From Trypanosoma brucei (taxonomy: Eukaryota): 64,000 nt of DNA. The number at the start of each line of letters is the position of its first letter. The first letter of the stretch is position 1. The DNA lies in contig CP000066.1 of the NCBI GenBank assembly GCA_000002445.1, positions 288,001-352,000 of the forward strand. Direction: 5' to 3'. Of the stretch, positions 1 through 43,284 are shown one piece after another. A program made the position numbers and the translations under genes. The notes below the pieces were generated by a model, which searched no databases, had not been told where the DNA came from, and saw only the letters and a list, made by a program, of their open reading frames with translations.

Positions 1-19
1 GAAAGGTAAGTGTGTGGAA

Positions 20-3000
20 ATGGACCAACCGGAGCGTCTTGTGGAATCACTTGTAGATTCTTCATGGGTGGTTTGTGGGACTGAGTTATTTGCTGATGAA
101 CTTAAGGACTTGGAACATTTAGAAGAGATGGATGAGAAGCTAGCATCACAACAGCAGCAACAACAACATCGGAGCGAAGTCGTCGATGGTTGCGATGTCT
201 TGCGGGAGAGTTATGATGGGAGCGCGTGGAGTCAGGAAAGACGGACCACTAGCAAGCCAAGGAAATCTCCAACGTTCTCAAAGCAAAAGTTGCCAGACCG
301 CCCGAGTTCGCGGGCGTCCACTGGTGGACAAGCTAAGGAGCCTTCCAGTATATGTTCAACAGCTGCTTCCGTTCGCGTGAAGACAGAAAAAGTAGTAAAT
401 GTTGCGGAGAATCGAGGGCAGGATCTATATAAGCAGATGTTACAAGCGCTAAAACAGCAGATACGACAGGTACGCGAAGAGGCAGATCTTCGTCGTTCAG
501 CCACGCGTCGGCAACTGCGTTTTTTTAGTGCACGCAACGTTGATGAATACTTACCCAGTGAAATCCTTCGGGGGGCCCCGGAAAAGCATTACCAGTGGAG
601 GAGTGAAGTTTCTGGTTTAGATTATGTTACTGAAGATGTATGGAGGAGGACACCGCACCAAGATGATGCAGCATCGTCTCCGTCCCCTAGTGTTACTGAT
701 AGTCGATCAGCGCTTACCATACTGCAGACGCCTTATGGGAGTGGCACAAGCTACCCTGCAATTTGTGATTTCACCATCGATCCCATAAACTTCATGGCGG
801 AAATTAATGTAGCACTGGAGAAGAATCATGGAGTTCGTATCGTCACTAAGGAGTCACAGCCGCCCGCAGAAGAACCAGATCCATCTATGTTGCTCTCCAA
901 TCAGTTATGTGAGATGTTAGAACACCAGCCGGGGCCCATGATGGACTTGAAGGAACCAACGTGGTTCAACACTGTGCTGCCTCCAATAGCATCAAAAATG
1001 GAGGAGAAATGGGTTGTCGACAATAGTGAAGGCCAAATGCCATGGAGTGGCGTTGGGCCGACGAAAAAGGTGAAGGGTGGTGGTGTGGAGAGACTACAAC
1101 TAGCATTTCCCCCACTCCCAGCCCGTGCTGGTCAAGATAGCAGGGTAGCTTCTGGTGGGACAGCGACCAAGAGAGCGGCTGTGGGGACTACCACTGATGG
1201 TTGCAACTCAAGCAAATACACGGGAGCTGGGCGCAGTGCAATCGGTGATATGGATAAACTTGTACGATGCTCTGCCACAGACGACACTGTGCGGCTGCGG
1301 GCGAAGGCGGGGACGAAGACAACTAGGACGGTGCGCTTCACTAACCACTGTACGAGGCACCTCGCCATGCGATTACAACCGGCCACGCATCCGTGGTTAA
1401 AATATTCCATTGTGAAGGCGTCCGCGGGGAAGCCGCTGGCGGCGTCGTCAGGTCTGTGTACAGCATTGGACAAGCCAGTTACCTTCTTTGAGTATATTGA
1501 CGTGATGATAACGTTTGAACCCCAAACGGTCAGGGAGCCTTCGATAGCAGAGGTTTTACGGATTGGGTATTGCGTAGAGCTAAATATCCGAAGTGGCGAG
1601 GGGGCACAGTGGCATTTTCTCGAAGTGACTGTTCTATGCGATACACAACAACCTGAATTTCGCCTCGTTCCGTTGGAAAAGGTTGCAGATCGGCGCGAGG
1701 AGGCTGCGGACACATCCGCAGAAGATTCGTCAAGAACAACACGTGTGAACTCGAGGGCCTCCAAAAAGGATTACATCACGACGTGTGAGTTTCCATGTAC
1801 TTTTGTGTTCCATTCCTTCACCAAATACTTCCAGCTGGAAAACATTGGGTCCGATGCCATCATTTCGTTAGGTACCAGTTCCTCTTGCTTCAAGATTACT
1901 TCACCCTTAGAGGAGGACATCGAAATACCCGGTGGTAGCACCGTGGAGATCGCTGTTTGCTTTTGCCCATTGAGCGAGGCTCACTATGACGCAGAGCAAT
2001 TGTTTGTTACTGTGAGGGACGAAAGAAACGGTCCTGTCTTGGCCAAACACACGTTTAACCTTCGGGGGGAAAGTGCCCTTCCCCACATTGACCTCTTGCG
2101 AATAGGACCCATGGAACTGAGTCCATTCGAAGGGGACGAGTGCAGTAGTGTGCCGCAGTATTTCCTCCCTGAAACCACATTGGGGGAGGAGGTAGTTGAG
2201 GAGGTGGTTGTACGCAACAATTGCCCAATTGCAGTAGAGTACTTTTGGCAGGTTGCCACTGTTGGTGGTGGACCCTCTGGAGCGCAACTGCAAATAACGC
2301 CGTGTCGTGGCGAGTTTCTTCCAAAACAAGACACTAGATTCACGGTGACTCTAAAACCTTCCGTGGTGGAGCCGTTCGCTGCTGTTCTCAACCTCTTCCT
2401 TGAGGGTCTTCCTAGGATTCCCATAGAGGGTGAACTAGGGAGGACTGTGGACAGCTGTGGCCCCCCGTTGCTTCCCCCACAAAATGACTCACGCATGGCG
2501 GAGTTAGATGCAACAAAGGGGGTGTTGAGGCTCTTATCTCGCTCTAGGATGGTTCCTGCTTTACCAGAGCCCGAACAATTGCGCCGACTCATGGACCCGT
2601 GTGGTGCGCTAAAGAACATTATGAAACCGCAATCGAGCGAGTGTAGTGGCGTCTTTGCGAGCGGATTCTACCTTTTTGCCGATCCTAGTCCTCCGCGTCT
2701 CATGCTTATTCCCGATCGTTTTGATGAGGGGTTGGAATGCCTCATTAACGGTGAGAACGCACGTCGCGTGGTGTTGCGAAACACTTCCCACCGGCTACTG
2801 CACTTCATCTTTGACCCGACGCCACAGGAATGCCCAGTGGGTGTGTGTTTTCCAGCCACATATGACCCAGAAACTGTGGAAGTGAGGTTTGAGCCGCGGG
2901 CAGGACGTGTGCCCCCACAAGGTTCTGTTCCTATCACATTCTTCTACACATTGAAGGAGGTTGGACATCACAGTATGTCGGTAAACTGTTACATCCCGGA

Positions 3001-6000
3001 GCTGTTTGAGCTGGGAGTGGAGTCTTCTGAGGGGTCACCTCCACTAAATCTTGTAACAGAGGTCCCGTGCACTCATGCTCTCCACCTCAGCGTGACGGGT
3101 GTTGGACCGACGCTGATTGCCAGTACTCACTTGTTGGATTTTGGACTCATTGAGCAAGGGCGGGAGTCTGAAGCGTCTTTTACTGTGACAAACGACAACC
3201 CTATTCCTGTTTCCTTTGAGCTACAGGATCCAAAGAAATGCGAGCCTCCGCGCTTCGTTTTTCTCCCGCAATCATTCCGTCTCGGTGTCGGTGAGTCAGT
3301 GGAGATTACTGTGTACCGCCAAGCTGTGGATATCACCGAGCCACAGACATTCTTTGAGTTAGTGGTGCCAAATGGTGGATCAATAGCAATCGAAACGCGA
3401 GCGGATATTCAGTTGCAAACATTGGTGTTACGCGAAACCGTCGTCAATTACGGTGTGGTGCCCAATGGGTCTTGGACAACGCAGTCGTTTGTTGTGTCGA
3501 ATCCGTTTGCCTCTGACATACCGTATACTGTCCAAGCCGTGGACGTGCCGCCGAATATTATGGTTCAGGTCCCACCCTCTGGTGTGGTGCGTGCAGGCTG
3601 TGTAGATGTCCAAATACCAATTCGCTGCGCATTTAGTGTCGTTGCAGCTGGAGGTGGGAAAAGGGCTGTCGTCAGTTTTAAGAATATGCGTACTACGCAG
3701 GAAATACTAGTAGAGCTTTGCTGCGAAAAGATCAGTGAACTTACGGTGGCGATTGATCTTATTCCCGTCCCGAAGGTATCGGAAGGCACTTGCTGCATGG
3801 CGTACACTCCCCCAATCCTGCCGTTGAATTTACCTGAAGCGCCAGAAATGGAGATATCTTCGTACATTGAGTCGGTTCTGCGTAACCTTATAGAGCTTGA
3901 GGTTCTGAAGTGTTGCGTTCCTCGCAAGAGCAGGAAAGAGAGTTTTAGTGCCGCCGTTGATGATGCTGTCACAAACTCTGTTTCTGCCTTGGACGCCATG
4001 GCAAGCGCGTCCGGAGCTGGAGGGACCGGGGAATTGGTTTTACGACCGTACTGTCCACCTGTGCATCTCCGTGCTTTACTACCTCATGGAGAGCCTGTAT
4101 GGTCAGAGTTGGTAGTTTTGCGTATAACCAATTTGACTGGCTGCCATAGTACGTACGGTGTCAACTGCACGCAGTATGGCTTCAACCAGACTCTAGTTGA
4201 TATGCGTCGAAGTCCCACAGTGGGCCGTGCAACCTCGAAGTCTATGACAATGACGGCTTCTAGCATAGCGGCCACGTCAAAAAATCGCGGTAGAAGCAGG
4301 GACGGTACCACTAGCAGGAGACGTGACTCCCGGCGTACCTTCGTCGGCAGTCCCGACAGCAGGCACCCCTTTTCAGCGGGGTATGCGGATGGTGACGACA
4401 CAAAAGGCAGAAAAGCCGTCGTGCAACCGACTTTCTGGTGCAAGAACTTGGATGGCTCAGAACAGAGGGAGCGTGAGCGTCGCGCTGCGCTGGTTGGTGC
4501 TCAGGAGGCTTTACTTGATGGTCGTGGTTGTGCCACCATCTTTGGTGGACCAACAGCTGGTGCGTTAAATCCTTTTGCCGAGTCAAAACTTCCCTTAACG
4601 CTTTCTGCCAACCTTCCCGGACGATACGAGGAGACCCTCAAGGTACACTGTGGTAACATGCCTCCCGTGCACATCCCAGTATCACTAGAGCTTCGTGGGA
4701 GACCCGTTCTTTTAGATTCCACTACTGCGGGTTTGTTGGTATCGGACGGCAAGGAGATTCTCTTAATGCCGTCAGTTCTTGCTGGTGTGGGGCGCTCTCA
4801 GCGCACGCTGCGGCTCGTCAACCGTCTTCCGCGAGACGTGAATGTGTCGTTTAAAATATTTCTGACAAACGTAACATTCTCTGTTTTTGCAGTTGATGAC
4901 AATGTGGAGGCCAATGCTGTAACGCTTCATCTCGGGCCTGTGACAGAGGAGGATCACCGACGTGAATCTGAAGGAAAGGGTGAGGTGGCCGCCGCACCTG
5001 AGAAGTTCTTTCTACCCGCGATGGGTTCGCAGTTGGTGACAATTGAATACGCTCCGGATGCAAACTTTGTGGGAGCCAACTGTTCCGAGCGGAAGTGGCT
5101 CGGTGGTGTTATTATCACAGCTGAATATGCTGACACGTCTTTTAACGATGCTTTTATCATTGATGAGTTTTATCGAATACATCCTCAATACCGGCCTATT
5201 GACCGTGTCGTTAAGAAATCTGCGCGTGAAGGTGACGCCGCGTGGACGAAAAGCCTTCTGCGACCCGCTGCAGTGTTGAAGGTGCGGCAACCTGTGATCA
5301 CACGGCCTGGTTTAATAAAAAAGAGCACCATCATCGTACCCGAGCTGGGCGTAGCTAGTTTTTCGAAGCGGAGCGGAGCATCCCGACGCAGATCTCTTCC
5401 GATTTGTTCTGATTCATTTTTGGGGGACCACACAGCTTTCAGTGACGACACCACTGATTCCGACGAGGAGGGGGGGGAAGCATCGGCTGTAATACGACAG
5501 ACGGAAACTGGTCGAGCCCAACGTCATGATGTATTACGTTCCTCGACTTCTCTGGAGGGGGAGCGCATGGAGTTGCTTTCATTCATTGAGAAGCGCCGGC
5601 AAGAGATGATGGAACACAGCAGGCGCTACTTTGTTCCCATAGAGTTGGAATTACAGGCCCTATGCGGCGTGGCCCAGCTAACTGTGGAACCATCAGAGAA
5701 CCTGGTTCGTTTTCCTACCTGCGTCGACGGACAGCGATGTACGCAAACAGTTCTTTTAACGAATAGAAGCTGTGCTGTGATGGCGTTTATGTTGGACATA
5801 CCTTCCCCTTCATTTAAATTGTTGAAAGCCCGCCTCATATTTTCTGATAAAGACTACAAGCAGCTGGAAGTGGAGGATGAGGAGACTCTCATATGCCGGA
5901 AAGCTTTAGAGAGTTTGAAGTGGTGCGGTGTGGAAGAGCGCCAAAAGGCACGACGTGTGGTGTCACTGGGTCAAAGCAAAGAAAATACAAATAAGGGGTG

Positions 6001-7003
6001 CACCCAAATTGTGTTGGAAAAATACCCTACTCAAAATCAGCGGCCAACGTCTCGTGGAAGTGCGTCCACAACTGGTGTCGTTGTAAACAAGTACCAACTG
6101 TTCCCTCATGATTCGTTACAGGTGGTGCTCGAGTATCAAAGCCAATCAAAGGCAGAGAGGGATGCCTTGGCGTGTGAGGGTGCAACAGTCACAGGTGAGC
6201 TCAATATTCTTTACCTCCCTGCTGACGTTGCTATCGTGAAGCAGCAGCAAAGTGGTGCAGTTGAGGGTAAGAAGCCATTTCATCCACCACCCGTATTGGA
6301 GCTTAAGCAAAGCATTCCCCTTTCCTTGAGCTTTTTGAACCCGTCTGTAACTAGTTCACCCTCATTCCTTTGGTTCTTCCCTGGTCAGCAGATTCATGAC
6401 GGACGTCAGCAGCCCTCGTACGTTCAGAAACTGCGGTTGATGAGCTTGCACCCCTCACCTCTCTCCTTCAAGCTATCTGTGGGAAGCACGGCCGCTAACA
6501 TTGGTTTGGTGCCGGCCCGTTGCAATGCGACACCAGCCCTTGGGTGTCTCAGCGGTGTTGCCGGTGAGCCACGGAAGGCGATTCGCCAGCTAACCTTGGC
6601 AGACGAGACACACAATGTATTCACACGTGAGCGAAAAATACGGGAGATGAAATGTTACATCAAAGATGATAATCCGCCTGCTGTTGGTGGTGTATGTGTG
6701 GAGGGCTGTGCCCCCCAAGACGGGAAAGGGGTTACGCGAGAGTTGCAACCTCGTTCAACACCATATGATAGGGAGAAACTGCTGGTAATTGAAGATGCGA
6801 GCCGCTTCACAATCACCCCCATGGAAGGCATCATTCCCGCGGCCACAAGGGGTGGCCAACCTGGAGTTTTTGAAATTTTGGTGGAGTTTAAAGAACACGC
6901 TAACATGCGCTTCGAGGCTGCATTTGATGTACTAATTGGAACTCACCATGCAAAGGCTTCAAGTTTCTTTCTCCGTGGTGACAGTCGTGAAACAGAGATT
7001 TAG
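20..7003 (+). CDS. Very large (about 2,300 aa) flagellar/ciliary ASH (MSP/PapD-like) repeat protein, hydin/CFAP-like. It may be 5-prime partial, because the frame is open to position 2 of the window.
   Basis: Single 6.99 kb ORF. The first in-frame ATG is at 20; the track start at 14 is GTG. There are many repeats of the beta-sandwich ASH signature (L.FG.v..G......F.v.N....P..F), e.g. LDFGLIEQGRESEASFTVTNDNPIPVSFELQ, VNYGVVPNGSWTTQSFVVSNPF and VRFPTCVDGQRCTQTVLLTNRS. This architecture is typical of hydin, CFAP65, CFAP74, CFAP47 and DLEC1. The family member is not resolved. Confidence 0.55.
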   Translation: MDQPERLVESLVDSSWVVCGTELFADELKDLEHLEEMDEKLASQQQQQQHRSEVVDGCDVLRESYDGSAWSQERRTTSKPRKSPTFSKQKLPDRPSSRASTGGQAKEPSSICSTAASVRVKTEKVVNVAENRGQDLYKQMLQALKQQIRQVREEADLRRSATRRQLRFFSARNVDEYLPSEILRGAPEKHYQWRSEVSGLDYVTEDVWRRTPHQDDAASSPSPSVTDSRSALTILQTPYGSGTSYPAICDFTIDPINFMAEINVALEKNHGVRIVTKESQPPAEEPDPSMLLSNQLCEMLEHQPGPMMDLKEPTWFNTVLPPIASKMEEKWVVDNSEGQMPWSGVGPTKKVKGGGVERLQLAFPPLPARAGQDSRVASGGTATKRAAVGTTTDGCNSSKYTGAGRSAIGDMDKLVRCSATDDTVRLRAKAGTKTTRTVRFTNHCTRHLAMRLQPATHPWLKYSIVKASAGKPLAASSGLCTALDKPVTFFEYIDVMITFEPQTVREPSIAEVLRIGYCVELNIRSGEGAQWHFLEVTVLCDTQQPEFRLVPLEKVADRREEAADTSAEDSSRTTRVNSRASKKDYITTCEFPCTFVFHSFTKYFQLENIGSDAIISLGTSSSCFKITSPLEEDIEIPGGSTVEIAVCFCPLSEAHYDAEQLFVTVRDERNGPVLAKHTFNLRGESALPHIDLLRIGPMELSPFEGDECSSVPQYFLPETTLGEEVVEEVVVRNNCPIAVEYFWQVATVGGGPSGAQLQITPCRGEFLPKQDTRFTVTLKPSVVEPFAAVLNLFLEGLPRIPIEGELGRTVDSCGPPLLPPQNDSRMAELDATKGVLRLLSRSRMVPALPEPEQLRRLMDPCGALKNIMKPQSSECSGVFASGFYLFADPSPPRLMLIPDRFDEGLECLINGENARRVVLRNTSHRLLHFIFDPTPQECPVGVCFPATYDPETVEVRFEPRAGRVPPQGSVPITFFYTLKEVGHHSMSVNCYIPELFELGVESSEGSPPLNLVTEVPCTHALHLSVTGVGPTLIASTHLLDFGLIEQGRESEASFTVTNDNPIPVSFELQDPKKCEPPRFVFLPQSFRLGVGESVEITVYRQAVDITEPQTFFELVVPNGGSIAIETRADIQLQTLVLRETVVNYGVVPNGSWTTQSFVVSNPFASDIPYTVQAVDVPPNIMVQVPPSGVVRAGCVDVQIPIRCAFSVVAAGGGKRAVVSFKNMRTTQEILVELCCEKISELTVAIDLIPVPKVSEGTCCMAYTPPILPLNLPEAPEMEISSYIESVLRNLIELEVLKCCVPRKSRKESFSAAVDDAVTNSVSALDAMASASGAGGTGELVLRPYCPPVHLRALLPHGEPVWSELVVLRITNLTGCHSTYGVNCTQYGFNQTLVDMRRSPTVGRATSKSMTMTASSIAATSKNRGRSRDGTTSRRRDSRRTFVGSPDSRHPFSAGYADGDDTKGRKAVVQPTFWCKNLDGSEQRERERRAALVGAQEALLDGRGCATIFGGPTAGALNPFAESKLPLTLSANLPGRYEETLKVHCGNMPPVHIPVSLELRGRPVLLDSTTAGLLVSDGKEILLMPSVLAGVGRSQRTLRLVNRLPRDVNVSFKIFLTNVTFSVFAVDDNVEANAVTLHLGPVTEEDHRRESEGKGEVAAAPEKFFLPAMGSQLVTIEYAPDANFVGANCSERKWLGGVIITAEYADTSFNDAFIIDEFYRIHPQYRPIDRVVKKSAREGDAAWTKSLLRPAAVLKVRQPVITRPGLIKKSTIIVPELGVASFSKRSGASRRRSLPICSDSFLGDHTAFSDDTTDSDEEGGEASAVIRQTETGRAQRHDVLRSSTSLEGERMELLSFIEKRRQEMMEHSRRYFVPIELELQALCGVAQLTVEPSENLVRFPTCVDGQRCTQTVLLTNRSCAVMAFMLDIPSPSFKLLKARLIFSDKDYKQLEVEDEETLICRKALESLKWCGVEERQKARRVVSLGQSKENTNKGCTQIVLEKYPTQNQRPTSRGSASTTGVVVNKYQLFPHDSLQVVLEYQSQSKAERDALACEGATVTGELNILYLPADVAIVKQQQSGAVEGKKPFHPPPVLELKQSIPLSLSFLNPSVTSSPSFLWFFPGQQIHDGRQQPSYVQKLRLMSLHPSPLSFKLSVGSTAANIGLVPARCNATPALGCLSGVAGEPRKAIRQLTLADETHNVFTRERKIREMKCYIKDDNPPAVGGVCVEGCAPQDGKGVTRELQPRSTPYDREKLLVIEDASRFTITPMEGIIPAATRGGQPGVFEILVEFKEHANMRFEAAFDVLIGTHHAKASSFFLRGDSRETEI

Positions 7004-7588: not shown

Positions 7589-7769
7589 AGAATCATTCTA
7601 AAGGTACCCTTTCACTTTTTGTCATCGTTGTTACCACCACTCCTGTTGTCTGCAACGCAGCAGAGAGAGAGAGAATTCGAAGACCAGCGGCTCCGCACAG
7701 CGCTTGGGGAGTACCTTTTAAAAAAAAAAACTATTGTTTGTTTTACAAAGTTCGGGGCCTGGGGTTGCC

Positions 7770-10091
7770 ATGAGTTTGCATGTCGGTAACGGTTTGCAGC
7801 AAATGGAGAAGAAACAATGTGTCTCCTCGTGCCTGCTGCTGACGTCGCTGCACGTGCGAGGGCCCCTGCCCCTTCCGTCAGCGCGGTCGTTAGTTGCCAG
7901 TGTTTGTGTCGGTACTTCTTCCATTACGACAGATGTTTTGCAGCCCGTGATGTCAGATGAAGTGAGTGGTTCTTCCGTGCCTTTGTCTCCGGTGTTTCAG
8001 CGCGCTTCGTCGACTCATCAGCGGTTGGCCTCCGCCAGCAGTGTTATTGGGTTGGAACCCCTTCGCATTATGTTTCCTCTCATCGACGACGACGCATGTC
8101 ACGGTGACGGCGGCTCGGGTTCTGCACAACCGCACAAGTACGAGTTTTGTATAGGATTGCGCGAGGCTGATAGCAATGCGTTATTAGGCGTCGCCATATG
8201 TACGCGGTCGGGCGCGTGGTTCCCCTTCAAACCATGTGGGGGATCTGCACGTATAACGTTTAGATACTGTGAGCAGATGGAACGGAAGAATCGAATACTG
8301 CGGCACTTACAGGAGGCGCAGTTGTATCCAACTTCTTCTGACACGAAGATGCAGTCCGATGCTTCGTGCAAGCTGGAGGCCTCGTCTTCCTTCCTTGCAC
8401 CTACGGCCTCCTCTGTTCTCTCAGCAAGTACATCCTTCGTGGACGGTGGCGGTCCGGGGAAGGGTTCCAGGCCCACACACAGTGGCTTGTCGGCCACCGA
8501 TGCACTTGCCGTTGCGCGGCCGCATTCAGCGTGTTCCTCGCCAAACTTTCCGCTGCTTCCTGCAACCGACACAAAAGTCAAACCGGAAAATGAACATTCA
8601 AGTCACATTATGTCCGTTCCCAACGTTACAACTGAGGGACCACGTCACCTTGCGAGTTCGAATGTTGCCACCAGTCAAACATGCAAGAAGGAACCGCGCA
8701 GAAATTATCATTGTGGATTAAATCCTATCTCTGTAAATGGTTTCTTTACAACATCTGATCCGTGCCCCCCTGGTGGGTTGCGGGAGCGTGAGGGCCAGCC
8801 GCGCAGCCTTGTCTTCTCGAACATACATGTGAAGGGCTTCTTTCCACTTTCCCTAACCGGTAGTTGGCGATTGGAGTTCCTAATACCGCACCCCTGCATA
8901 CCGGTTACGAAGCACACGGTAACTGTGCCAGCTACCTTCGACACAGACGGCAGCAGCGCACTTCGTGACACTCTCACGGTTGACCTTCCGTTATTCCTTA
9001 GAGGTGAGGTGCAGACGCGGCTGCGCGCCACGTGGGTCGACAGCAATAATTTGGACGATATAACGGAGGTACCCACGGTGGTGGAGTTTGACCCTATTGT
9101 TATCAAAGTAGGAGGAAGTGAGGTGTGTCAGCAGGAAAGGCGTTACCACAAGCTAGTTAGGCACAGTGCGGAGAAGTTCACGCTGTCCGAACTCGGCGTG
9201 CAACTGCTAGTGGCATTAAAGTATTTTGCCCCTCATCGGGAGGGACAGAACGGTCGACCCACCAGCGCACATTCAGACGCTCGACTTTGGAGGTCTGCGA
9301 TGGCTTGGAGGGAGGGGGAAAAGGATGCTGACGCTGTGAAAACTAAGGGTAACGGTCTTGGCAAAGGAGGGGACGGAGCAGATATGGACGTACGTTTGCC
9401 TGAACTACAGACAGCTGCAACTCCAGATGGGAAGAACATGAGCAAAAACAGTATATTTACTGAGGAAGCGATGTCCGCAAAGGCCCTTTCGTTTGGTGAT
9501 AACGCTAGCCAATCGAATGCCCACAGGAGTCCACCTTCCAAGGAGGTGCCTCCTCCACGACGGGCTTCCAAAGAGGAAGTTCGTAACCCAGGAATGGGCC
9601 ACTTTAGTACGCTGAAACCTGCAACTAATGCACAATTGGTTGCGTCAATGGACGATTTAGTGCCGTGCTACACTGAAGAGCAGCGGAGGGCTGTTTTTGC
9701 TCTCTACGACACTAACAACAGAGGCTACATGACACAGGAGCAAATACTTCACTTCTGTCGTGCTCATGTAGCCCTGTTCGATGGACACCAAAACGATGCG
9801 AATATTGTGCGGCTACTTCAATCTCTGTTCCCCCGAATGCCCCGGAGGCGTATGAATGCTACAGAGGCCGCTGCAAAAGCCACATCCTCCTATTTACTGC
9901 AATCCCGTAAGCCTTGTGCACCGGCGCTGGAACAGCGCTTAAAAAATAGAGGACTACAAACACCAAGTGGGCGTCCGACATCAGGTCAGCACACGGCGGG
10001 TGGCTCCCCACAGGGCGCGTTAGGCTTGCCGAGGAGGTGCATAACGTATGACATATTTGAGGTTATTGCCCTTCGCCTTGCCGGAATGTAG
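7770..10091 (+). CDS. Hypothetical Ser/Ala-rich protein with a C-terminal EF-hand-like loop.
   Basis: Long ORF with GC3-rich codon use like its neighbours. The first ATG at 7770 follows a polypyrimidine tract; the track start at 7734 is TTG. The C-terminal DTNNRGYMTQEQ resembles an EF-hand loop but is imperfect (Q at position 12). No other family signature was recognised. Confidence 0.45.
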   Translation: MSLHVGNGLQQMEKKQCVSSCLLLTSLHVRGPLPLPSARSLVASVCVGTSSITTDVLQPVMSDEVSGSSVPLSPVFQRASSTHQRLASASSVIGLEPLRIMFPLIDDDACHGDGGSGSAQPHKYEFCIGLREADSNALLGVAICTRSGAWFPFKPCGGSARITFRYCEQMERKNRILRHLQEAQLYPTSSDTKMQSDASCKLEASSSFLAPTASSVLSASTSFVDGGGPGKGSRPTHSGLSATDALAVARPHSACSSPNFPLLPATDTKVKPENEHSSHIMSVPNVTTEGPRHLASSNVATSQTCKKEPRRNYHCGLNPISVNGFFTTSDPCPPGGLREREGQPRSLVFSNIHVKGFFPLSLTGSWRLEFLIPHPCIPVTKHTVTVPATFDTDGSSALRDTLTVDLPLFLRGEVQTRLRATWVDSNNLDDITEVPTVVEFDPIVIKVGGSEVCQQERRYHKLVRHSAEKFTLSELGVQLLVALKYFAPHREGQNGRPTSAHSDARLWRSAMAWREGEKDADAVKTKGNGLGKGGDGADMDVRLPELQTAATPDGKNMSKNSIFTEEAMSAKALSFGDNASQSNAHRSPPSKEVPPPRRASKEEVRNPGMGHFSTLKPATNAQLVASMDDLVPCYTEEQRRAVFALYDTNNRGYMTQEQILHFCRAHVALFDGHQNDANIVRLLQSLFPRMPRRRMNATEAAAKATSSYLLQSRKPCAPALEQRLKNRGLQTPSGRPTSGQHTAGGSPQGALGLPRRCITYDIFEVIALRLAGM

Positions 10092-11558: not shown

Positions 11559-11854
11559 ACGTGAACTGTTGCGGTTAGTTGGGTTCACATGCGCTACTTT
11601 TGACCTCCTCATCTTTGTGTATTGTCAGTCACGTAGGCGCAGGCATCGGCTGCATTTGTATGTAGGGGTACTTATGCGAGCACGTCTGCATGTGCAAGTT
11701 TCTGGCGTAACGGCATCAGTGACTGCACCGCCGTCTCTGTGTGCAATGCGCGCCAGAATCGGCAGAAGAGCTATCCGTGTTTCCGTAATGCCCTACCCCG
11801 TATTTCATCAATTCATTACTTTTCCATACTTTTTTGTTACTAGCCAAATTTAGG

Positions 11855-14776
11855 ATGTCGTACCCACACAACTTTGACCACCAGGCGCCACCTCTACAAC
11901 AACTGCAGCAACAAGTACCTCCTCCATTACCACACGGGTCGTGGGCTCCGCAGCCAAACCAGGGTCCAGGTGTACCATTTAATGGTGTGGGTCCGGGGAT
12001 AACGGGAGCTTACGGCGCGGCAAGTGCCTCGGGTAACGCACCTACGGCACAGGATTGGTACTACAACCAATGCCCCACTTCGGCTTCCGGTGCACCTTAT
12101 AGCAATGGGACGAACAACTTCGCCTACACACCCGAGATGCAGTACCAACCGCCGCACGCGCAGCAGCAACAGCAGCAGCAACAACTGTCGTATAAAATTC
12201 CATCGGCGGCGGCAGCCCAACCATCATTCCCAGGCCTCGGTGCGACGGCGGCAAGTTCTCCCCACACGCCCGCTACCGTTGGTCAATATTCTGAACACCC
12301 ACCTGCCGCCCGGCACCACGACGTTTCGGAACGCAACGAGCATCGGGGAATTCCTTGTCAGGAGAACTTACGTTCCTTTCCTGCGCCTCAGTCACGGCAT
12401 AGTGCAGATTCAGAGAGACAGTCCACCGGCCCCCCACCTAATTATGTGCGTCCTCCTCCGAGACGCGCTGTGGACCTCGTTAAGGCGCCTAACCCTAATG
12501 AGTGTGTACCTCCTTCCTCGGACAGTCTCATGTCCAACCACTCTAACCTCCAGTTTCCATCTGGTGCAGATGCCAACATTAGCAACGCAAGCGTAAAGTT
12601 TTTTCGACCGACGATGAAGTGGGTGCCCGCAAGTGCCAATCTCGTGAAGGACAGCCGCGTGCCATTTGGGGCTGTGATTGCCCCTCTTTGCCAACCCGTT
12701 GATCCGCAGGAAGAGGTTCCGTGTGTTTCCGGTTACCCACCCGTTCGGTGTCAGCGCTGCCGAGCTTATGTTTCTTGTCACGCGCGCTTTACAAACATGG
12801 GTCGAAACTGGGTTTGCCCTCTCTGCAGTATGTGCAACGATGTGAGCGAAGAGTACTTCTGCAACTTAGATAATCAGGGCCAGCGGTTGGATAAGATGCA
12901 GCGACCAGAACTTTCACGGGGGAGCGTGGAGTTCGACGTGGATGCATATCCTGAGTATGCGTTACGGAACAGCGATGATGCGGCTCTCGAAGCTAGACCA
13001 CTGCATTATCTGTTTCTGTTGGATGTGTCGGTAAAGGCGGCAACGACATTTCTGTCTGACTATGTGGATGCTTTACTCCGCTCACTTCACGAGATGGCAG
13101 TTCAGTATCCCGAGTGCCGCGTTGCCTTTATCACGTACGCATCAACGCTTCACTTCTATAATGTCCGTCACCCTCGCATGCCCCAAATGATTGTTTCAGA
13201 CGTGTGCAACCCGTTCGTACCCCTTCCCTTCACGAGTCTCTGCTGGCTTACACTCGGCACTGAGTTAGACTTGGTGGATGCGTTCTTGTTGCGTGTACCG
13301 GAGTATGCGAGTGACCTCTGTGAGACCGGCTGCGTGCTGGGTGCTGCGGTGGAGGTGGCAAAACTCGTGTTGTCCGGGCAGCATGGTGGTCGCGTTATTA
13401 TAACCGCGCATAAGGCACCACAAAATGGGATCGGCGCTATCAAACCGCGCGAGCAGCATGTCCTATACGGAACGGAAAAGGAAAAGGAACTGCTGCGCCC
13501 GCTAGACGGATACTGGCAGACGATTGCAACCACGTGTGCAAAGGAGCAGATTTCACTTGATTTGCACATGTTCGCCGATGAATATTGCGAATTGGTGACC
13601 CTCTCACATCCCTGCCACGTCACAAACGGCCGTGTACATCTCTTCTCCAACTACGATAGTCAAACTGACGCCGTTGAACTGCAGGCTGTGCTTGATCAGG
13701 CGCTGTTAGAGGAGGCCGGTTATGCTGGTATACTGCGTGTTCGCTGCAGCACCGGTCTGCGTGTTCAGAGGTATCATGGACATTTCTTCTCCCAAGACAA
13801 GCACGATATGGATCTTGTTCACGTTCAGGGCTCCTCCTCCTTTTATGTTGAATTTGCGCATGAGTCGAAGCCTGATAGCAGTTCTGCCGCATACTTTCAA
13901 ACCGCGTTACTGTACACCACGCGTAGGGGCAATCGTCGGGTGCGCGTTCACTCAGTGCGAATACCGATAGCTTCGTCTATTTCATCAATTTTCGATGGAG
14001 ACACTGTGGCAGTCCTGATGGCGTACATACACCAGGTTATTTCTAATTCGGTGAACAAGGGGTTGAAATACGCTAGGGAACAGATGCATCAGCAACTGTT
14101 ACAACTGTTAACTAGCTACCGCCGTGTTGTTTCACAGAAATCCACATCGGTGCTGCTTATGCCTGGTAGCCTCCGTCTTATGCCACTCTATACGCTGTGT
14201 GTCCTGAAATCCGATGCAATTGCCGAGGGTACTACTGTTCGTATCGACGACCGGGTGCAGAAACTCTTTCACTTACTTACTGTTCCCACTCATCAATGCC
14301 TTTCGTACTTTTACCCCACCCTTTACGCCATGCATTCGTCGATGGAGGAAACGTTCTGTGGGGCGATAAACCCCGAGACCGGTGACTGCGTTATGCCACC
14401 GCGGAAACGACTGTTCTACGAAAGTATTACAACTGACGGTGTGTACATTCTTTGTGATGAGCAGGCACGGTCGGTGTACTTGTGGGTTGGCTCTGCTGTG
14501 ACGCCTGAGATATCTTTGGAGTTGTTCGGAACGGCGAATTCAGCAGAGGTGGGGCGCAGCGTATTCTTCGATCACTTTGGGGAGCGGCTGCGGAACGTAC
14601 TGTGGGCTTGCCTGAATCGTGATGGACGCATGCGGCGTTTGGTGATTTTGCATCAAAAGGACCGGGGTGAGGAAGCTTTCTTTAAGCAACTGAAGGAAGA
14701 AGGTGAAGGAGGAACGATGAGTTACGACCAACTACTGTTGAAACTGCACAAAGCGGTGGGCGAGTTGGCGCTATGA
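11855..14776 (+). CDS. SEC24: COPII coat subunit Sec24.
   Basis: Pro/Gln-rich N-terminus typical of Sec24. Sec23/24-type zinc finger C-x2-C...C-x2-C (CQRCRAYVSCHARFTNMGRNWVCPLC). Trunk, beta-barrel and gelsolin-like region follow (LHYLFLLDVS, FQTALLYTTRRGNRRVRVHS). Size is about 970 aa. ATG at 11855; the track start at 11834 is TTG. Confidence 0.8.
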   Translation: MSYPHNFDHQAPPLQQLQQQVPPPLPHGSWAPQPNQGPGVPFNGVGPGITGAYGAASASGNAPTAQDWYYNQCPTSASGAPYSNGTNNFAYTPEMQYQPPHAQQQQQQQQLSYKIPSAAAAQPSFPGLGATAASSPHTPATVGQYSEHPPAARHHDVSERNEHRGIPCQENLRSFPAPQSRHSADSERQSTGPPPNYVRPPPRRAVDLVKAPNPNECVPPSSDSLMSNHSNLQFPSGADANISNASVKFFRPTMKWVPASANLVKDSRVPFGAVIAPLCQPVDPQEEVPCVSGYPPVRCQRCRAYVSCHARFTNMGRNWVCPLCSMCNDVSEEYFCNLDNQGQRLDKMQRPELSRGSVEFDVDAYPEYALRNSDDAALEARPLHYLFLLDVSVKAATTFLSDYVDALLRSLHEMAVQYPECRVAFITYASTLHFYNVRHPRMPQMIVSDVCNPFVPLPFTSLCWLTLGTELDLVDAFLLRVPEYASDLCETGCVLGAAVEVAKLVLSGQHGGRVIITAHKAPQNGIGAIKPREQHVLYGTEKEKELLRPLDGYWQTIATTCAKEQISLDLHMFADEYCELVTLSHPCHVTNGRVHLFSNYDSQTDAVELQAVLDQALLEEAGYAGILRVRCSTGLRVQRYHGHFFSQDKHDMDLVHVQGSSSFYVEFAHESKPDSSSAAYFQTALLYTTRRGNRRVRVHSVRIPIASSISSIFDGDTVAVLMAYIHQVISNSVNKGLKYAREQMHQQLLQLLTSYRRVVSQKSTSVLLMPGSLRLMPLYTLCVLKSDAIAEGTTVRIDDRVQKLFHLLTVPTHQCLSYFYPTLYAMHSSMEETFCGAINPETGDCVMPPRKRLFYESITTDGVYILCDEQARSVYLWVGSAVTPEISLELFGTANSAEVGRSVFFDHFGERLRNVLWACLNRDGRMRRLVILHQKDRGEEAFFKQLKEEGEGGTMSYDQLLLKLHKAVGELAL

Positions 14777-16264: not shown

Positions 16265-16349
16265 TATTTATTTATTGGTGTGGAACTGAGTGTTTCTCTC
16301 TTTTCTTTCTGGTTCGCGTTTGGATCCCGTCTACCCCAGAAAAACGGAA

Positions 16350-17885
16350 ATGGACACCCGGTTTCACTGTGTCTATTTACTCACGAGCTTGGACCCTCAA
16401 TGTGAAGGCGCGCACTACATTGGATACACGGTGAATCCCATCCGGCGCCTTCGGCAGCATAATGGAGAATTGGTGAACGGCGCAAGACGAACAAAGAGAA
16501 ACGGACGGCCGTGGCTGCTTCTAATGTGTGTCTCCGGCTTCGGTGAAGACCGCATAGCGCTCAAGTTTGAATGGTGCTGGCAGAATCCATCGAAGTCCAC
16601 GCGGTTAAAGTCACACGTATCTCAGCTACGGTGTGTTCACAAACTGACCCACGCTGTCGGTGTTCTGCTGCTGCTGTTGCGCACGGAACTTTTCTCTAGG
16701 CTGCAACTGACACTCCACATTTTTGATCGGGAGCACTTTGATAAGGTGATCTCACAATTGCTGTCGGCACTGCCGACAATGGAGCCGCTGGTGGAGACGT
16801 CTCTTCTTCGTGTGGAAAGCACGACTATAGAGCAGTTCCAGACCCAATACATGAATGATGGGCAGTGGGGTGCAGCGGTAGATTACGGCGCTTACTTCAT
16901 GCGAGCACCACCGGGAGCTAACGTCGACGTCAGCAAGCCTATCGTTGGCGGCCAGGATAATACACTTCGTTGCGGCGTCATGCATAACAACTTGTGTGAA
17001 GAAGAAGTCATCAGACAGCATGTAAAGGAGCGAACATTGCTTGAGTCCGGGCACTACCCCTGCTCGTTATGCTCGCTGCCGCTGAGAGCGCCGTACTTCT
17101 TGCGCTGCTCACGCACGCCATTCTGCAGGCTTCGTGCGCACATTGTGTGTCTTGCCATGTGGTTTATCTATGATTCCTCACAACGTGGTGGCGACCCTCT
17201 GGTGAAAGATGCCGGGCCAGCGGAGGTGGCGGAGAACAGCAACGACGCTGCCTGTCAAGTGAATGAGAACTGCTATTCCCTTTCTGGCTGTGGGCCTGTT
17301 GTTGGTGGTATTTTCAATCACGACGCATACACAGACCGAAGAGACGACAACTCGCCGCCGTCCCCACCTTGTCCCCTTCCCACTCAATCATCACAGGCGG
17401 ATGCATCGTTGGCTGCAACGAGTTTGCCGCTTGTACCACGAGCGCCATGCGATTGTCCATTATGTGATGAGGAGTTGCAATGGAGCGCGCTCGTCTACGA
17501 TCTGAAGCGCCGGGTGGCGGTGGAGAAGCGCCGTGCAGAACGTGAAAGGCGGGAGGCTATGGACGCCGAGTTCGCGCAAAGGTTTCAACGCCTTCAGTCT
17601 GAGAGCAACAAAAAATCGACAGCGCGGGAGCGGGGTGCATTGGAGGGTGTGAGACGAAAGCGAAGGCGGCGCGGGGAGGTAGCAGCCAAGTTAACTCAAC
17701 AAACAGCAGTTCGGCACGAGCCCACATCGGGCGCTTCTGGTGATCGTGCTCATTCCGCTCCGCCAGCCCCTTCATGTGGAGGGTTTGATGAAATTCCCGC
17801 CAACGTCACGAACCCCACCGCTCCGCTACATGCTGATGTCTTGCAGGTCACAGAGTTCAACGTCGACGAGTGGCTTAACCACTGA
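16350..17885 (+). CDS. SLX1: Structure-specific endonuclease subunit SLX1 (GIY-YIG nuclease plus C-terminal RING/PHD-like zinc finger).
   Basis: N-terminal GIY-YIG block [12 protein letters not shown]...[17 protein letters not shown]...[12 protein letters not shown]-terminal Cys-rich fingers CSLCSLPL...[14 protein letters not shown] and [15 protein letters not shown] at 16350 directly follows a polypyrimidine tract; the track start at 16290 is GTG. Confidence 0.75.
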
Positions 17886-32098: not shown

Positions 32099-32721
32099 CG
32101 CCCACTCGCGCTTTTAAAAAACTGACTTTCACAGCTTTTGGGAGGCAGTGGCCTCGCCCACCCTTCATAGTGCGGTAGTGGCGATTGGGAGAACGATGGA
32201 TGCACGTTGGGTGTACAAGCGTCACTCAAGAGAGCGGGGGGGGGCCGTTAAAATGTAACTGGTTGTGCTGAGGGTTAAGGGACGGAGATTGTTATATCGT
32301 TCACCGAAAGTAAATATCATATATACATTCTCCCCTCTGCGTATCTACTGGGTTTGTACATGTGGATTACGATCGTGCGCTACTTACTGTGGCAAATAAA
32401 TTTTTATCTTTTCGCTTTTTCTCATCTTCTGCCCTTGCCTCAACTGAACGCTACCGCAGGGTAGTTGCTCCTTCGTTGAATCAAAAAGAATAGGTGAGTG
32501 CTGTAAAAGCGGTCTCAGTGTTTGGTTGAACACCTTTCTCGGAGTCGGGGCAAGAAGGGGGAAAGTGCTTCGCAAAAAGTAACAGAATAATATCACATAT
32601 CTATACATTTGTTTCCTTGTGAGCATTTAACCACACTTAACGCGTGTGTAAAGTGCCACGTGAGAAAGGAGGGTTAGCAGGCGTGCACTGTAGTTCGTGA
32701 ATTGTGCCACGTCTGTCAGTC

Positions 32722-39123: not shown

Positions 39124-39435
39124 TGTCAGGGTAATTTCTCTGTCGACATGTCAATTTTATACAGTGATACAGTTTGGGCGACGGACTCTTCGTCTGTTGG
39201 CCTCCTGTTCTTGTTAGTGTATGTGTGTTTTGAGTATTCCTTTCATTCGAACCCACGCGCGCACACCTGTATATCTATTTGCTATTCATATGCTACTTTG
39301 CCTCTGTGGGGGTGTATAACCGGACTCTGACTGACTCCAAAGCTCAACTTTCCGAACACCGTTACCCTCGCTGTACATGCGTTTCTTGTGTTTGCACGCG
39401 GATAGTAGTGGGGGCCAAAAACAGTGGTAGGAGCG

Positions 39436-42879: not shown

Positions 42880-43284
42880 GGTGGGCAAGGGATAATTCTT
42901 CCCTTCCCTCGTTACTTTAAGCCCTGTTTTATTTCAATCTCCTAGGATTCCTGTTGTACTCTTGCATTTGAGGGGCTATATACAACGTATATACATAAAT
43001 GTCATATCTGTGTCGACTGTTGCCCTGCTCTACTTTTCCCCACTTGTTCGCTTCTGCGGGATTGGCAAGGAACACAAGAGACGCACAAAATTGCTTTCTC
43101 ACGCTGTGGTGCTTCCCCTTTCTGATTCTTCTGGTAACTGCTTGGAACATCATCGCTCCGGCTCGTTTCTGTAATATTTTCTCGATTTTATTTATTTCAC
43201 CCTTCTTCATCGACTCCACTCGGGTCGAGTGAAAGTGGTAGTACAAGTGACACACCCGCGTTGGCCCGCCGCGAGGCGCCACGC

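What the first reader, a model, noticed from the sequence alone, without database searches (positions are those of the whole stretch)
20..7003. Giant ASH-domain repeat protein, possibly truncated by the window edge
The 2,329-codon ORF is open all the way to position 2 of the window (no upstream in-frame stop). The first ATG is at 20 and the track start at 14 is GTG. The protein may therefore begin upstream of this window. Its body is a string of ASH/MSP-like beta-sandwich repeats, which are almost exclusively found in cilia/flagella-associated giants (hydin, CFAP47/65/74/221, DLEC1). Which family member it is, and therefore which axonemal sub-structure it belongs to (central pair projection versus inner junction), cannot be decided by eye.
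Basis: partly seen in the sequence, partly recalled or inferred. Interest (0 to 1): 0.5.

Follow-up and report, generated by a model that had tools for sequence, protein, structure and literature searches.

The report
Complete trypanosome DLEC1/FAP81 central-pair gene
The long gene at the start of the window is a complete Trypanosoma brucei gene, not cut by the window edge, and it encodes a very divergent version of DLEC1/FAP81, a known protein of the central pair of microtubules in motile flagella, so it is an ordinary though poorly annotated flagellar gene.

Summary
The ORF is real (14/20..7003, + strand). From ATG 20 it encodes 2327 aa, 100% identical over its full length to T. brucei TREU927 XP_843713.1, annotated 'hypothetical protein, conserved'. 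The gene number Tb927.3.1190 is inferred from neighbouring genes.

The gene is not truncated. In the 99%-identical T. b. gambiense locus and in an independent read-assembly contig, an in-frame TAA lies 14 codons upstream of the ATG, with no ATG between.

The family is DLEC1/CFAP81/FAP81, not CFAP65.
- The Pfam 'Ig_CFAP65_4th' hit is generic: genuine DLEC1 and hydin-like giants hit it far more strongly.
- A 15-sequence kinetoplastid profile aligns end to end with a 19-sequence DLEC1 profile (hhalign probability 100%, E 6e-93; Tb 390-2282 to DLEC1 343-1746 of 1748).
- Against hydin-like giants the score is about four times lower.
- Against solved structures, FAP81 and DLEC1 score 126 and 110 bits; FAP65 and CFAP65 score 51 and 18.
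- An AlphaFold model of the C-terminal half matches mouse DLEC1 (9IJJ) best, at E 3e-30.

By homology, the protein is a ten-domain beta-sandwich strut on the C1 central microtubule at the base of the C1e/C1c projections. Localisation in trypanosomes was not tested. Interest is low: it is a divergent member of a known family.

The parts
20..7003 (+). Complete coding sequence (2327 aa plus stop) of the T. brucei DLEC1/FAP81 orthologue. The gene number Tb927.3.1190 is inferred.
   Evidence: ORF. 100% identity and 100% coverage to XP_843713.1/AAZ10154.1. Upstream in-frame TAA in the gambiense locus. Gene number inferred from neighbours: DCL2 = Tb927.3.1230, Sec24.1 = Tb927.3.1210, Tb927.3.1200.
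20..1276 (+). N-terminal region, aa 1-419, with no Ig domains. It has short motifs conserved among kinetoplastids (aa 14-34, 251-273, 296-305) and does not align to the DLEC1 N-terminus.
   Evidence: Conservation in alignment A2. The local hhalign alignment only starts at Tb 390 / DLEC1 343. No Pfam hit.
1277..1669 (+). Ig/ASH domain 1 (aa ~420-550), equivalent to the Pfam Ig_Dlec1_1 segment of DLEC1.
   Evidence: DLEC1 368-452 maps to Tb 420-518. There is no direct Pfam hit on this segment.
1778..2089 (+). Ig/ASH domain 2 (aa ~587-690).
   Evidence: hhalign blocks Tb 587-621 and 622-802 to DLEC1 474-717, mean confidence 8-9. Weak Pfam Cep192_D4 and HYDIN-like Ig hits.
2117..2425 (+). Ig/ASH domain 3 (aa ~700-802).
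   Evidence: The same hhalign block. Pfam Ig_CFAP65_4th at 27.3 bits on the isolated segment.
2624..3019 (+). Ig/ASH domain 4 (aa ~869-1000). It carries the above-threshold Pfam Ig_CFAP65_4th hit (aa 944-992).
   Evidence: E 5.6e-14. hhalign Tb 869-997 to DLEC1 724-837.
3071..3424 (+). Ig/ASH domain 5 (aa ~1018-1135), the most conserved part. It carries the Pfam HYDIN_VesB_CFA65-like_Ig hit at aa 1034-1102.
   Evidence: E 5.5e-14. Dense invariant columns in A2. Direct phmmer alignment to mouse DLEC1 834-972.
3425..3775 (+). Ig/ASH domain 6 (aa ~1136-1252), equivalent to the Pfam 'DLEC1 sixth Ig-like domain'.
   Evidence: DLEC1 959-1062 maps to Tb 1133-1237, inside hhalign block Tb 1018-1252 to DLEC1 838-1077.
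4055..4714 (+). Ig/ASH domain 7 (aa ~1346-1565), split by a Ser/Arg-rich disordered insert (aa ~1391-1474) and a helix. It holds the motif most diagnostic for DLEC1 relatives (aa ~1480-1616).
   Evidence: AlphaFold model strands 9-44 and 165-226 with pLDDT 80-90. Most non-kinetoplastid hits in the exhaustive search match here. hhalign Tb 1479-1629 to DLEC1 1155-1317.
4733..5212 (+). Ig/ASH domain 8 (aa ~1572-1731). It is followed by an acidic/Ser-rich disordered linker and a long helix (aa ~1832-1870).
   Evidence: AlphaFold model residues 233-392 and helix 493-531. Insert of 90 aa at Tb 1724-1813.
5639..6217 (+). Ig/ASH domain 9 (aa ~1874-2066), with a helical insert.
   Evidence: AlphaFold model residues 535-601 and 655-727. 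hhalign Tb 1868-2067 to DLEC1 1476-1644.
6302..6985 (+). Ig/ASH domain 10 (aa ~2095-2322), with a disordered insert. The C-terminal motif LRGDSRxTE is conserved across kinetoplastids.
   Evidence: AlphaFold model residues 756-816 and 917-983, pLDDT about 85-90. hhalign Tb 2094-2282 to DLEC1 1645-1746. Invariant C-terminal columns.

Best explanation
Window 20-7003 is the complete, intron-less coding sequence of the Trypanosoma brucei orthologue of DLEC1 (CFAP81; Chlamydomonas FAP81). It lies in a one-strand polycistronic gene array on chromosome 3.

Shown here: the protein has a roughly 420-aa lineage-specific N-terminal region. This is followed by ten Ig/ASH-type beta-sandwich domains that correspond one to one, and in order, with the ten ASH domains of DLEC1. 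About 390 aa of kinetoplastid-specific, mostly disordered inserts interrupt or separate them.

Inferred from homology, using published Chlamydomonas and mouse structures and mutants: the chain of beta-sandwich domains lies along the outer surface of the C1 central-pair microtubule. Its terminal domains contact the PF16/SPAG6 armadillo spiral. It forms the foundation on which the C1e (and C1c) projection of the C1a-e-c supercomplex is built. Its loss would be expected to remove those projections and disturb beat frequency and waveform rather than abolish the axoneme.
For: Identity and completeness:
- 100% identity and coverage to XP_843713.1.
- In-frame TAA 14 codons upstream with no intervening ATG in the 98.95%-identical gambiense locus, and the same upstream sequence in a Logan contig.
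- A pyrimidine tract plus AG about 165 nt upstream fits a trans-splice acceptor.

Family:
- An exhaustive phmmer search of aa 560-1720 against 1.84 billion representatives returned kinetoplastid orthologues first. Next came proteins of about 1650-1780 aa matched at aa 1480-1616, one of them guinea-pig DLEC1 at E 2.5e-11.
- All 19 members of that set carry Pfam Ig_Dlec1_1 and 18 of 19 carry Ig_DLEC1_6th.
- hhalign of the kinetoplastid profile against the DLEC1 profile gave probability 100%, E 6.3e-93, 1250 columns. In Tb coordinates this is 390-2282 to DLEC1 343-1746 of 1748.
- The control against hydin-like giants scored 209 versus 834-900, with many alternative registers.
- A profile search of the PDB gave FAP81 9e-36, DLEC1 4e-31, FAP65 4e-13, CFAP65 0.002, FAP47 2e-6 and CFAP221 0.007.
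- An AlphaFold model of aa 1340-2327 (pLDDT 66.5, four beta-sandwiches) matches mouse DLEC1 chains 9ijj_P/O best, at E 2.6e-30 and 4.5e-30. That is 11 orders of magnitude ahead of the next hit.
- In a neighbour-joining tree on 759 columns, the trypanosomatid clade is sister to prokinetoplastid DLEC1-like proteins, then Euglena, inside the DLEC1 family.

Function of the family:
- Mouse DLEC1 has 10 ASH domains, repeats every 32 nm, binds SPAG6 through its terminal domains and forms the base of C1e along C1 protofilament 4 (PMC12297659).
- The Chlamydomonas fap81 mutant lacks C1c and C1e and has reduced beat frequency and altered waveform (PMC7999657).
Against: - Identity to DLEC1 is only about 17% over aligned columns.
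- The two DLEC1-named Pfam models do not hit the T. brucei protein directly, and they also hit hydin-like giants.
- No localisation, proteomic or knock-down record for this gene was found in the papers and supplements I could read.
- The protein is in no PDB entry.
- I could not search a T. brucei proteome with DLEC1, so a second, more canonical DLEC1 paralogue in trypanosomes is not formally excluded.
- The upstream stop was read in close relatives, not in the window's own strain.
- The tree has no support values.
- The T. brucei central apparatus is reported to show only 16-nm periodicity, which does not obviously fit a 32-nm DLEC1-type repeat.
Confidence: 0.85

Rival explanations
1. It is the trypanosome CFAP65/FAP65 orthologue, a C2a-projection protein, as the best Pfam label (Ig_CFAP65_4th) suggests.
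For: Pfam Ig_CFAP65_4th at E 5.6e-14, above its gathering score, plus weak CFAP65_7th and _9th hits. The orthologues carry the same label.
Against: The model is generic. Genuine DLEC1 hits it at 3.4e-38, all 19 DLEC1-family members hit it, and a hydin-like giant hits it 23 times. The kinetoplastid profile scores FAP65 at 50.8 bits and mouse CFAP65 at 18.5 bits, against 125.8 for FAP81 and 110.4 for DLEC1. In the fold search CFAP65 (9ijj_h) is at 2.5e-17 against 2.6e-30 for DLEC1. The T. brucei cryoEM preprint assigns a FAP65 homologue separately.
Confidence: 0.03
2. It is a hydin-related protein: a short hydin paralogue or a fragment-like copy of the hydin N-terminus, acting at the C2b/bridge region.
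For: Chlamydomonas hydin is the top PDB hit by summed score (3.7e-38), and its residues 100-716 are collinear with profile positions 408-1148. DLEC1 itself aligns well with the first ~1150 aa of hydin-like giants (score 744).
Against: The hydin score is summed over 18 scattered stretches of a 4929-aa repeat protein. hhalign against hydin-like giants gives 209 against 834-900 for DLEC1, with six near-equal registers. The region after aa 1300 matches only FAP81/DLEC1. The C-terminal-half model matches DLEC1 14 orders of magnitude better than hydin. The protein is 2327 aa, against about 4500-5100 aa for hydin.
Confidence: 0.04
3. It descends from DLEC1 but is a kinetoplastid-specific paralogue, or a repurposed orthologue, that no longer sits at the base of C1e. 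Its extra N-terminal region and about 390 aa of inserts would give it a different place or role in the flagellum.
For: It has 17% identity, is 580 aa longer, and its N-terminus is unrelated. Prokinetoplastids keep a canonical-length DLEC1-like protein of 1693-1731 aa with direct Pfam DLEC1 hits. The T. brucei central apparatus shows 16-nm periodicity only, and its C1a/C1e regions diverge from Chlamydomonas.
Against: All ten domains are kept in order. The gene tree mirrors the species tree, as expected for orthologues. No second kinetoplastid group was recognised among the 99 hits of the exhaustive search, though few hits could be named. C1c and C1e densities are present in T. brucei and FAP81 is listed as conserved.
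Confidence: 0.08

Closest known systems
DLEC1 / CFAP81 (mammals; mouse sperm central apparatus, PDB 9IJJ chains O and P)
   Same: Ten Ig/ASH beta-sandwich domains in the same order, aligned from the first domain to the C-terminus. It is the best fold match for the C-terminal half and the only PDB hit of the single sequence.
   Different: About 17% identity. The T. brucei protein is about 580 aa longer, with an unrelated N-terminal ~400 aa and 12 inserts of more than 20 aa, totalling 387 aa. There is no direct hit to the DLEC1-named Pfam models. Position on C1 and the 32-nm repeat are untested in trypanosomes.
FAP81 (Chlamydomonas reinhardtii, C1a-e-c supercomplex; PDB 7N6G chain 4C, 7SQC)
   Same: Second-best PDB sequence hit for the kinetoplastid profile (9e-36, 125.8 bits), with collinear stretches at profile 563-768, 1087-1149 and 1306-1520. 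Its length is similar (2215 aa) and it also has long low-complexity inserts.
   Different: The inserts lie at different places and are unrelated. The fold match to the partial FAP81 model is weaker (1.7e-15). The mutant phenotype is known only for the alga.
Hydin (N-terminal ~1150 residues)
   Same: The same type of ASH domains. The N-terminal part is collinear with domains 1-6.
   Different: Hydin is about 4500-5100 aa with more than 30 domains. The profile-profile score is four times lower and the register is ambiguous. The C-terminal four domains of the T. brucei protein have no specific hydin counterpart.
CFAP65 / FAP65 (C2a projection)
   Same: It shares the generic Ig_CFAP65_4th and HYDIN/CFA65/VesB-like Ig domain types.
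   Different: Much weaker profile and fold scores. No end-to-end collinearity was shown.

Membership tests
DLEC1/CFAP81/FAP81 | A chain of ten ASH/Ig-like domains, collinear with DLEC1 from the first domain to the C-terminus | tested here: met
   hhalign probability 100%, E 6.3e-93, 1250 columns. Tb 390-2282 aligns to DLEC1 343-1746 of 1748. Four C-terminal beta-sandwiches appear in the AlphaFold model. The count of ten domains for mouse DLEC1 comes from PMC12297659.
DLEC1/CFAP81/FAP81 | The nearest relatives outside the lineage are DLEC1 proteins, and the gene tree places it inside the family | tested here: met
   Exhaustive search plus naming. 19 of 19 and 18 of 19 of the hit set carry the DLEC1-named Pfam domains. 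Neighbour-joining tree on 759 columns, without support values.
DLEC1/CFAP81/FAP81 | The best match among solved structures is DLEC1/FAP81 | tested here: met
   By sequence profile, FAP81 scores 125.8 bits and DLEC1 110.4 bits; hydin's 133.7 bits is a sum over 18 scattered repeats. By fold, 9ijj_P/O are at 2.6e-30 and 4.5e-30, and the next hit is at 7e-19. Only the C-terminal half was modelled.
DLEC1/CFAP81/FAP81 | Direct hits to the Pfam models named after DLEC1 (PF23277 Ig_Dlec1_1, PF23316 Ig_DLEC1_6th) | tested here: inconclusive
   No hit at E <= 1 on the T. brucei protein or its isolated segments. The corresponding DLEC1 segments map in register to Tb 420-518 and 1133-1237, and intermediate prokinetoplastid relatives hit both models. 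These models also hit a hydin-like giant, so they are not exclusive.
DLEC1/CFAP81/FAP81 | Reciprocal best hit: DLEC1 retrieves this protein and no other from the T. brucei proteome | not testable with these tools
   No T. brucei proteome or genome is searchable here. The word-indexed protein search missed even close orthologues.
DLEC1/CFAP81/FAP81 | Location on the C1 microtubule at the base of C1e/C1c, in contact with PF16/SPAG6, and loss of C1c/C1e in mutants | not testable with these tools
   Known for mouse and Chlamydomonas. For T. brucei there is only a list-level statement that FAP81 is conserved. No record for this gene was found in held supplements.
CFAP65/FAP65 | Stronger and collinear similarity to CFAP65 than to other ASH giants | tested here: not met
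   FAP65 scores 50.8 bits and CFAP65 18.5 bits, against 110-126 bits for DLEC1/FAP81. The fold match is 2.5e-17 against 2.6e-30. The Ig_CFAP65_4th model is generic.
Hydin | A protein of about 4500-5100 aa with more than 30 ASH domains and a unique-register alignment to hydin | tested here: not met
   The protein is 2327 aa. The hhalign score is 209 with six near-equal registers. The hydin PDB score is a sum of scattered domain hits.

The most novel reading that the evidence does not exclude
The trypanosomatid DLEC1 orthologue has been remodelled. It has a new ~400-aa N-terminal region, about 390 aa of inserts and a kinetoplastid-invariant C-terminal LRGDSRxTE motif. It might therefore build a lineage-specific C1e/C1c base compatible with the purely 16-nm periodicity reported for the T. 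brucei central apparatus. In animals and algae DLEC1/FAP81 marks a 32-nm repeat. The protein might also correspond to one of the unassigned Ig-fold densities in the T. brucei C1 map.
Probability: 0.15. Interest if true: 0.45.

Novelty: new member of a known kind. Interest (0 to 1): 0.2.

Why it matters
The result gives a precise family name and a testable location to a 2327-aa T. brucei protein that GenBank still calls 'hypothetical protein, conserved'. The predicted location is the C1 microtubule at the base of the C1e/C1c projections. Domain databases label the protein misleadingly with a CFAP65 model.

The central pair controls the flagellar beat, which the parasite needs for viability and transmission. 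A correct parts list helps interpret the T. brucei central-apparatus maps, where several Ig-fold densities remain unassigned.

It is also a practical caution. The Pfam models 'Ig_CFAP65_4th', 'Ig_DLEC1_6th' and similar do not discriminate among ASH-domain giants. End-to-end profile alignment or fold comparison is needed. Beyond that the finding is ordinary.

Tried and rejected
1. Word-indexed homologue searches returned only the protein itself, one Leishmania cluster and an Angomonas fragment. They missed the 59%-identical T. congolense orthologue, so they were uninformative for family assignment.
2. Looking up the exact TREU927 protein in the contig index found nothing. The gambiense and Logan proteins worked instead.
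3. Single-sequence AlphaFold of aa 420-1339 failed (pLDDT 36.5) and was not used. The N-terminal six domains therefore rest on sequence profiles only.
4. Direct Pfam scans of isolated segments found nothing for domains 1, 7, 8 and 10.
5. Literature and supplement searches for Tb927.3.1190 found no mention. The mass-spectrometry source paper PMC12165780 is not held. The supplement of the T. brucei central-apparatus preprint is not held.
6. One literature query was badly framed and returned irrelevant papers.
7. Rejected readings: the GTG 14 start, which is only a bacterial-code artefact (the same artefact gives the 2321-aa Logan proteins that start at an internal GTG); CFAP65; hydin; and truncation by the window edge.
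Full report
**What the window is.** Of the 24 ORFs of at least 200 aa, 20 lie on the + strand. The four on the minus strand all overlap + strand ORFs. Cumulative GC skew rises steadily. The genes are intron-less and include kinetoplastid-specific families: a Dicer-like protein with KptA_kDCL and La_HTH_kDCL domains, and the cap-binding subunit CBP66. The protein read from ATG 20 is 100% identical over 100% of its length to T. brucei brucei TREU927 XP_843713.1/AAZ10154.1 and to a T. equiperdum protein. It sits on a 1,653,225-bp contig. So the window is part of a polycistronic unit of T. brucei chromosome 3. Papers use Tb927.3.1230 for DCL2, Tb927.3.1210 for Sec24.1, and Tb927.3.1200 for a 263-aa EF-hand protein. 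These match window ORFs at 18319-21165, 11834-14776 and the end of 7734-10091. The gene in question is therefore most likely Tb927.3.1190. That number is an inference from gene order, not a read-out.

**The observation.** It is correct. The ORF runs 14..7003 on the + strand, 2329 codons from GTG 14. The first ATG is at 20-22. The frame has no stop back to position 2. A stop-free run of this length has a chance probability near 1e-49. 'Open to the edge' amounts to only six codons.

**Is it truncated? No.** The syntenic locus of T. b. gambiense DAL972 (L001) is 98.95% identical to the first 17 kb of the window. Window base 1 corresponds to L001 base 9982. Upstream of the ATG the frame reads TAA AGA AAG CAG AAC CGT AGG ACG AAA GGT AAG TGT GTG GAA ATG. 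That places an in-frame TAA 14 codons before the ATG, at window-equivalent position -22, with no ATG between. An independent read-assembly contig (L002) shows the same upstream sequence. The deposited TREU927 and gambiense proteins both start at this ATG, and the T. rangeli orthologue aligns from residue 1. A pyrimidine tract followed by AG about 165 nt upstream fits a trans-splice acceptor, which is an inference. GTG 14 has no meaning in a eukaryote. The 2321-aa Logan proteins begin at an internal GTG for the same gene-calling reason. One caveat remains: the upstream bases were read in very close relatives, not in the window's own strain.

**Which family?** Pfam gives two above-threshold hits: Ig_CFAP65_4th (aa 944-992, E 5.6e-14) and HYDIN_VesB_CFA65-like_Ig (aa 1034-1102, E 5.5e-14). 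That would suggest CFAP65, but the label is not specific.
- A genuine DLEC1 from guinea pig hits Ig_CFAP65_4th at 3.4e-38.
- All 19 members of a DLEC1 family set hit it.
- A 4588-aa hydin-like giant hits it in 23 places.

Searched alone against all PDB sequences, the protein finds only mouse DLEC1 (9ijj_O, E 1.7e-6). The two best stretches, aa 1012-1144 and 1495-1615, are collinear with the chain.

An exhaustive HMMER search with aa 560-1720 against 1.84 billion representatives gave 99 hits. First came kinetoplastid orthologues of 2150-2770 aa, including T. congolense, T. rangeli, Leishmania and Phytomonas. Next came proteins of about 1650-1780 aa matched mainly at aa 1480-1616. These include the prokinetoplastids Papus and Apiculatamorpha, Euglena longa and guinea-pig DLEC1. 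I aligned 19 of them (A3). All carry Pfam Ig_Dlec1_1 and 18 carry Ig_DLEC1_6th.

**Profile-profile test.** A 15-sequence kinetoplastid alignment (A2) aligned to A3 with probability 100%, E 6.3e-93 and 1250 aligned columns. In residue coordinates, Tb 390-2282 aligns to guinea-pig DLEC1 343-1746 of 1748. High-confidence blocks run along the whole length, with 16.8% identity overall. The Pfam-defined first and sixth Ig domains of DLEC1 map to Tb 420-518 and 1133-1237.

As a control, A2 against an alignment of six to seven hydin-like giants scored 209 (E 9e-21) with six near-equal registers, as expected for generic repeat similarity. Against DLEC1 the score is 834-900.

The A2 profile against the PDB gave these scores:

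| PDB protein | E-value | Bits |
|---|---|---|
| FAP81 | 9e-36 | 125.8 (collinear) |
| DLEC1 | 4e-31 | 110.4 (collinear, down to the C-terminal stretch) |
| FAP65 | 4e-13 | 50.8 |
| FAP47 | 2e-6 | 28.3 |
| Mouse CFAP65 | 0.002 | 18.5 |
| CFAP221 | 0.007 | 16.7 |

Chlamydomonas hydin had the highest summed score (133.7 bits). That total is spread over 18 scattered stretches of a 4929-aa repeat protein, and only its first ~700 residues are collinear.

**Structure.** A single-sequence AlphaFold run on aa 420-1339 failed (pLDDT 36.5). With a 17-sequence alignment, aa 1340-2327 gave mean pLDDT 66.5. The model shows four well-formed beta-sandwich domains at Tb ~1346-1565, 1572-1731, 1874-2066 and 2095-2322. 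They are separated by disordered inserts and one long helix. Foldseek against the PDB put the two mouse DLEC1 chains first (9ijj_P 2.6e-30, 9ijj_O 4.5e-30). The next hit was at 7e-19, CFAP65 at 2.5e-17, hydin at about 1e-16 and FAP81 at 1.7e-15. This is the half of the protein where Pfam sees nothing, so it is independent support. Six domains from sequence mapping plus four from the model give ten. That matches the ten ASH domains described for mouse DLEC1 (PMC12297659).

**Orthology.** A neighbour-joining tree on 759 well-occupied columns was rooted on the hydin-like N-termini. It places the trypanosomatid-type proteins as sister to the prokinetoplastid DLEC1-like proteins, then Euglena, all within the DLEC1 family. 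The gene tree follows the species tree, as expected for fast-evolving orthologues. The tree has no support values. I could not run the reverse search of DLEC1 against a T. brucei proteome.

**How it most likely works (inferred from the family).**
- In mouse sperm, DLEC1 lies parallel to C1 protofilament 4 and repeats every 32 nm. [quoted passage not shown]
- In Chlamydomonas, fap81 mutants lose C1c and C1e and beat more slowly with an altered waveform.
- A 2025 preprint on the T. brucei central apparatus sees C1a, C1c and C1e densities on a PF16 spiral. It lists FAP81 among the conserved proteins, but does not model it or give an identifier in the held text.

The T. brucei protein is therefore best read as the beta-sandwich strut under C1e/C1c on the C1 microtubule.

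**What differs.**
- The N-terminal ~400 aa are unrelated.
- There are 12 inserts of more than 20 aa, totalling 387 aa and mostly Ser/Arg/Glu-rich.
- The C-terminal LRGDSRxTE motif is invariant in kinetoplastids.
- The preprint reports only 16-nm periodicity in T. brucei, which a 32-nm DLEC1-type repeat would not obviously fit. I leave that open.

**Verdict.** The gene is real, complete and ordinary. It is a strongly diverged member of a known ciliary family, under-annotated in sequence databases. Confidence is about 0.85 for family and orthology. Confidence in the exact position in the trypanosome flagellum is lower, because that was not tested.

Noticed in passing
window 7734-10091 (+); the true gene is probably only the last ~263 codons, about 9300-10091: The next gene downstream has an EF-hand (Pfam EF-hand_6/7 at ORF aa 652-683). 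It matches Tb927.3.1200, a 263-aa EF-hand protein reported as specific to the proximal axoneme or the start of the flagellum attachment zone (FAZ) in T. brucei (PMC11971395). Two flagellar genes therefore sit side by side. The bacterial-code ORF (785 aa from TTG) and the gambiense gene call (923 aa) both look over-extended.
   Followed up: partly
alignment A3 (DLEC1 family) versus hydin-like giants P0053, P0076, P0083, P0084, P0096, P0111, P0109: DLEC1 residues 357-1744 align with the first ~1150 residues of hydin-like giants at hhalign score 744, E 2e-79. The 'DLEC1' Pfam models also hit the hydin-like protein. DLEC1 looks like a free-standing relative of the hydin N-terminus. I did not check whether this has been described.
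   Followed up: partly
Pfam models PF24507, PF23316 and PF23277, tested on P0044, P0053 and A3: Pfam Ig models named after one position in one protein (CFAP65 4th, DLEC1 6th, CFAP74 1st and others) cross-hit all ASH giants strongly. Family assignment from the top Pfam name is therefore unreliable for this protein class.
   Followed up: yes
window 18319-21165 (+), 16290-17885 (+), 11834-14776 (+), 48135-49895 (+): Housekeeping neighbours were identified by Pfam: Dicer-like DCL2 (KptA_kDCL, La_HTH_kDCL, RNase III), an SLX1-like GIY-YIG nuclease, Sec24, and the kinetoplastid cap-binding subunit CBP66. A PP1-type phosphatase, a cullin and an NPL4-like protein are also present. Nothing was unusual.
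   Followed up: partly
window 39424-42879 (+), 43261-47562 (+), 32704-33954 (+): Three long ORFs (1151, 1433 and 416 aa) have no Pfam hit at E <= 1e-4. They were not examined further.
   Followed up: no
P0021 (4448 aa, EukProt entry of unnamed species): One relative is twice as long, and only its residues ~1560-4448 are collinear with the whole T. brucei protein. It is probably a fused gene model. It was not resolved.
   Followed up: no
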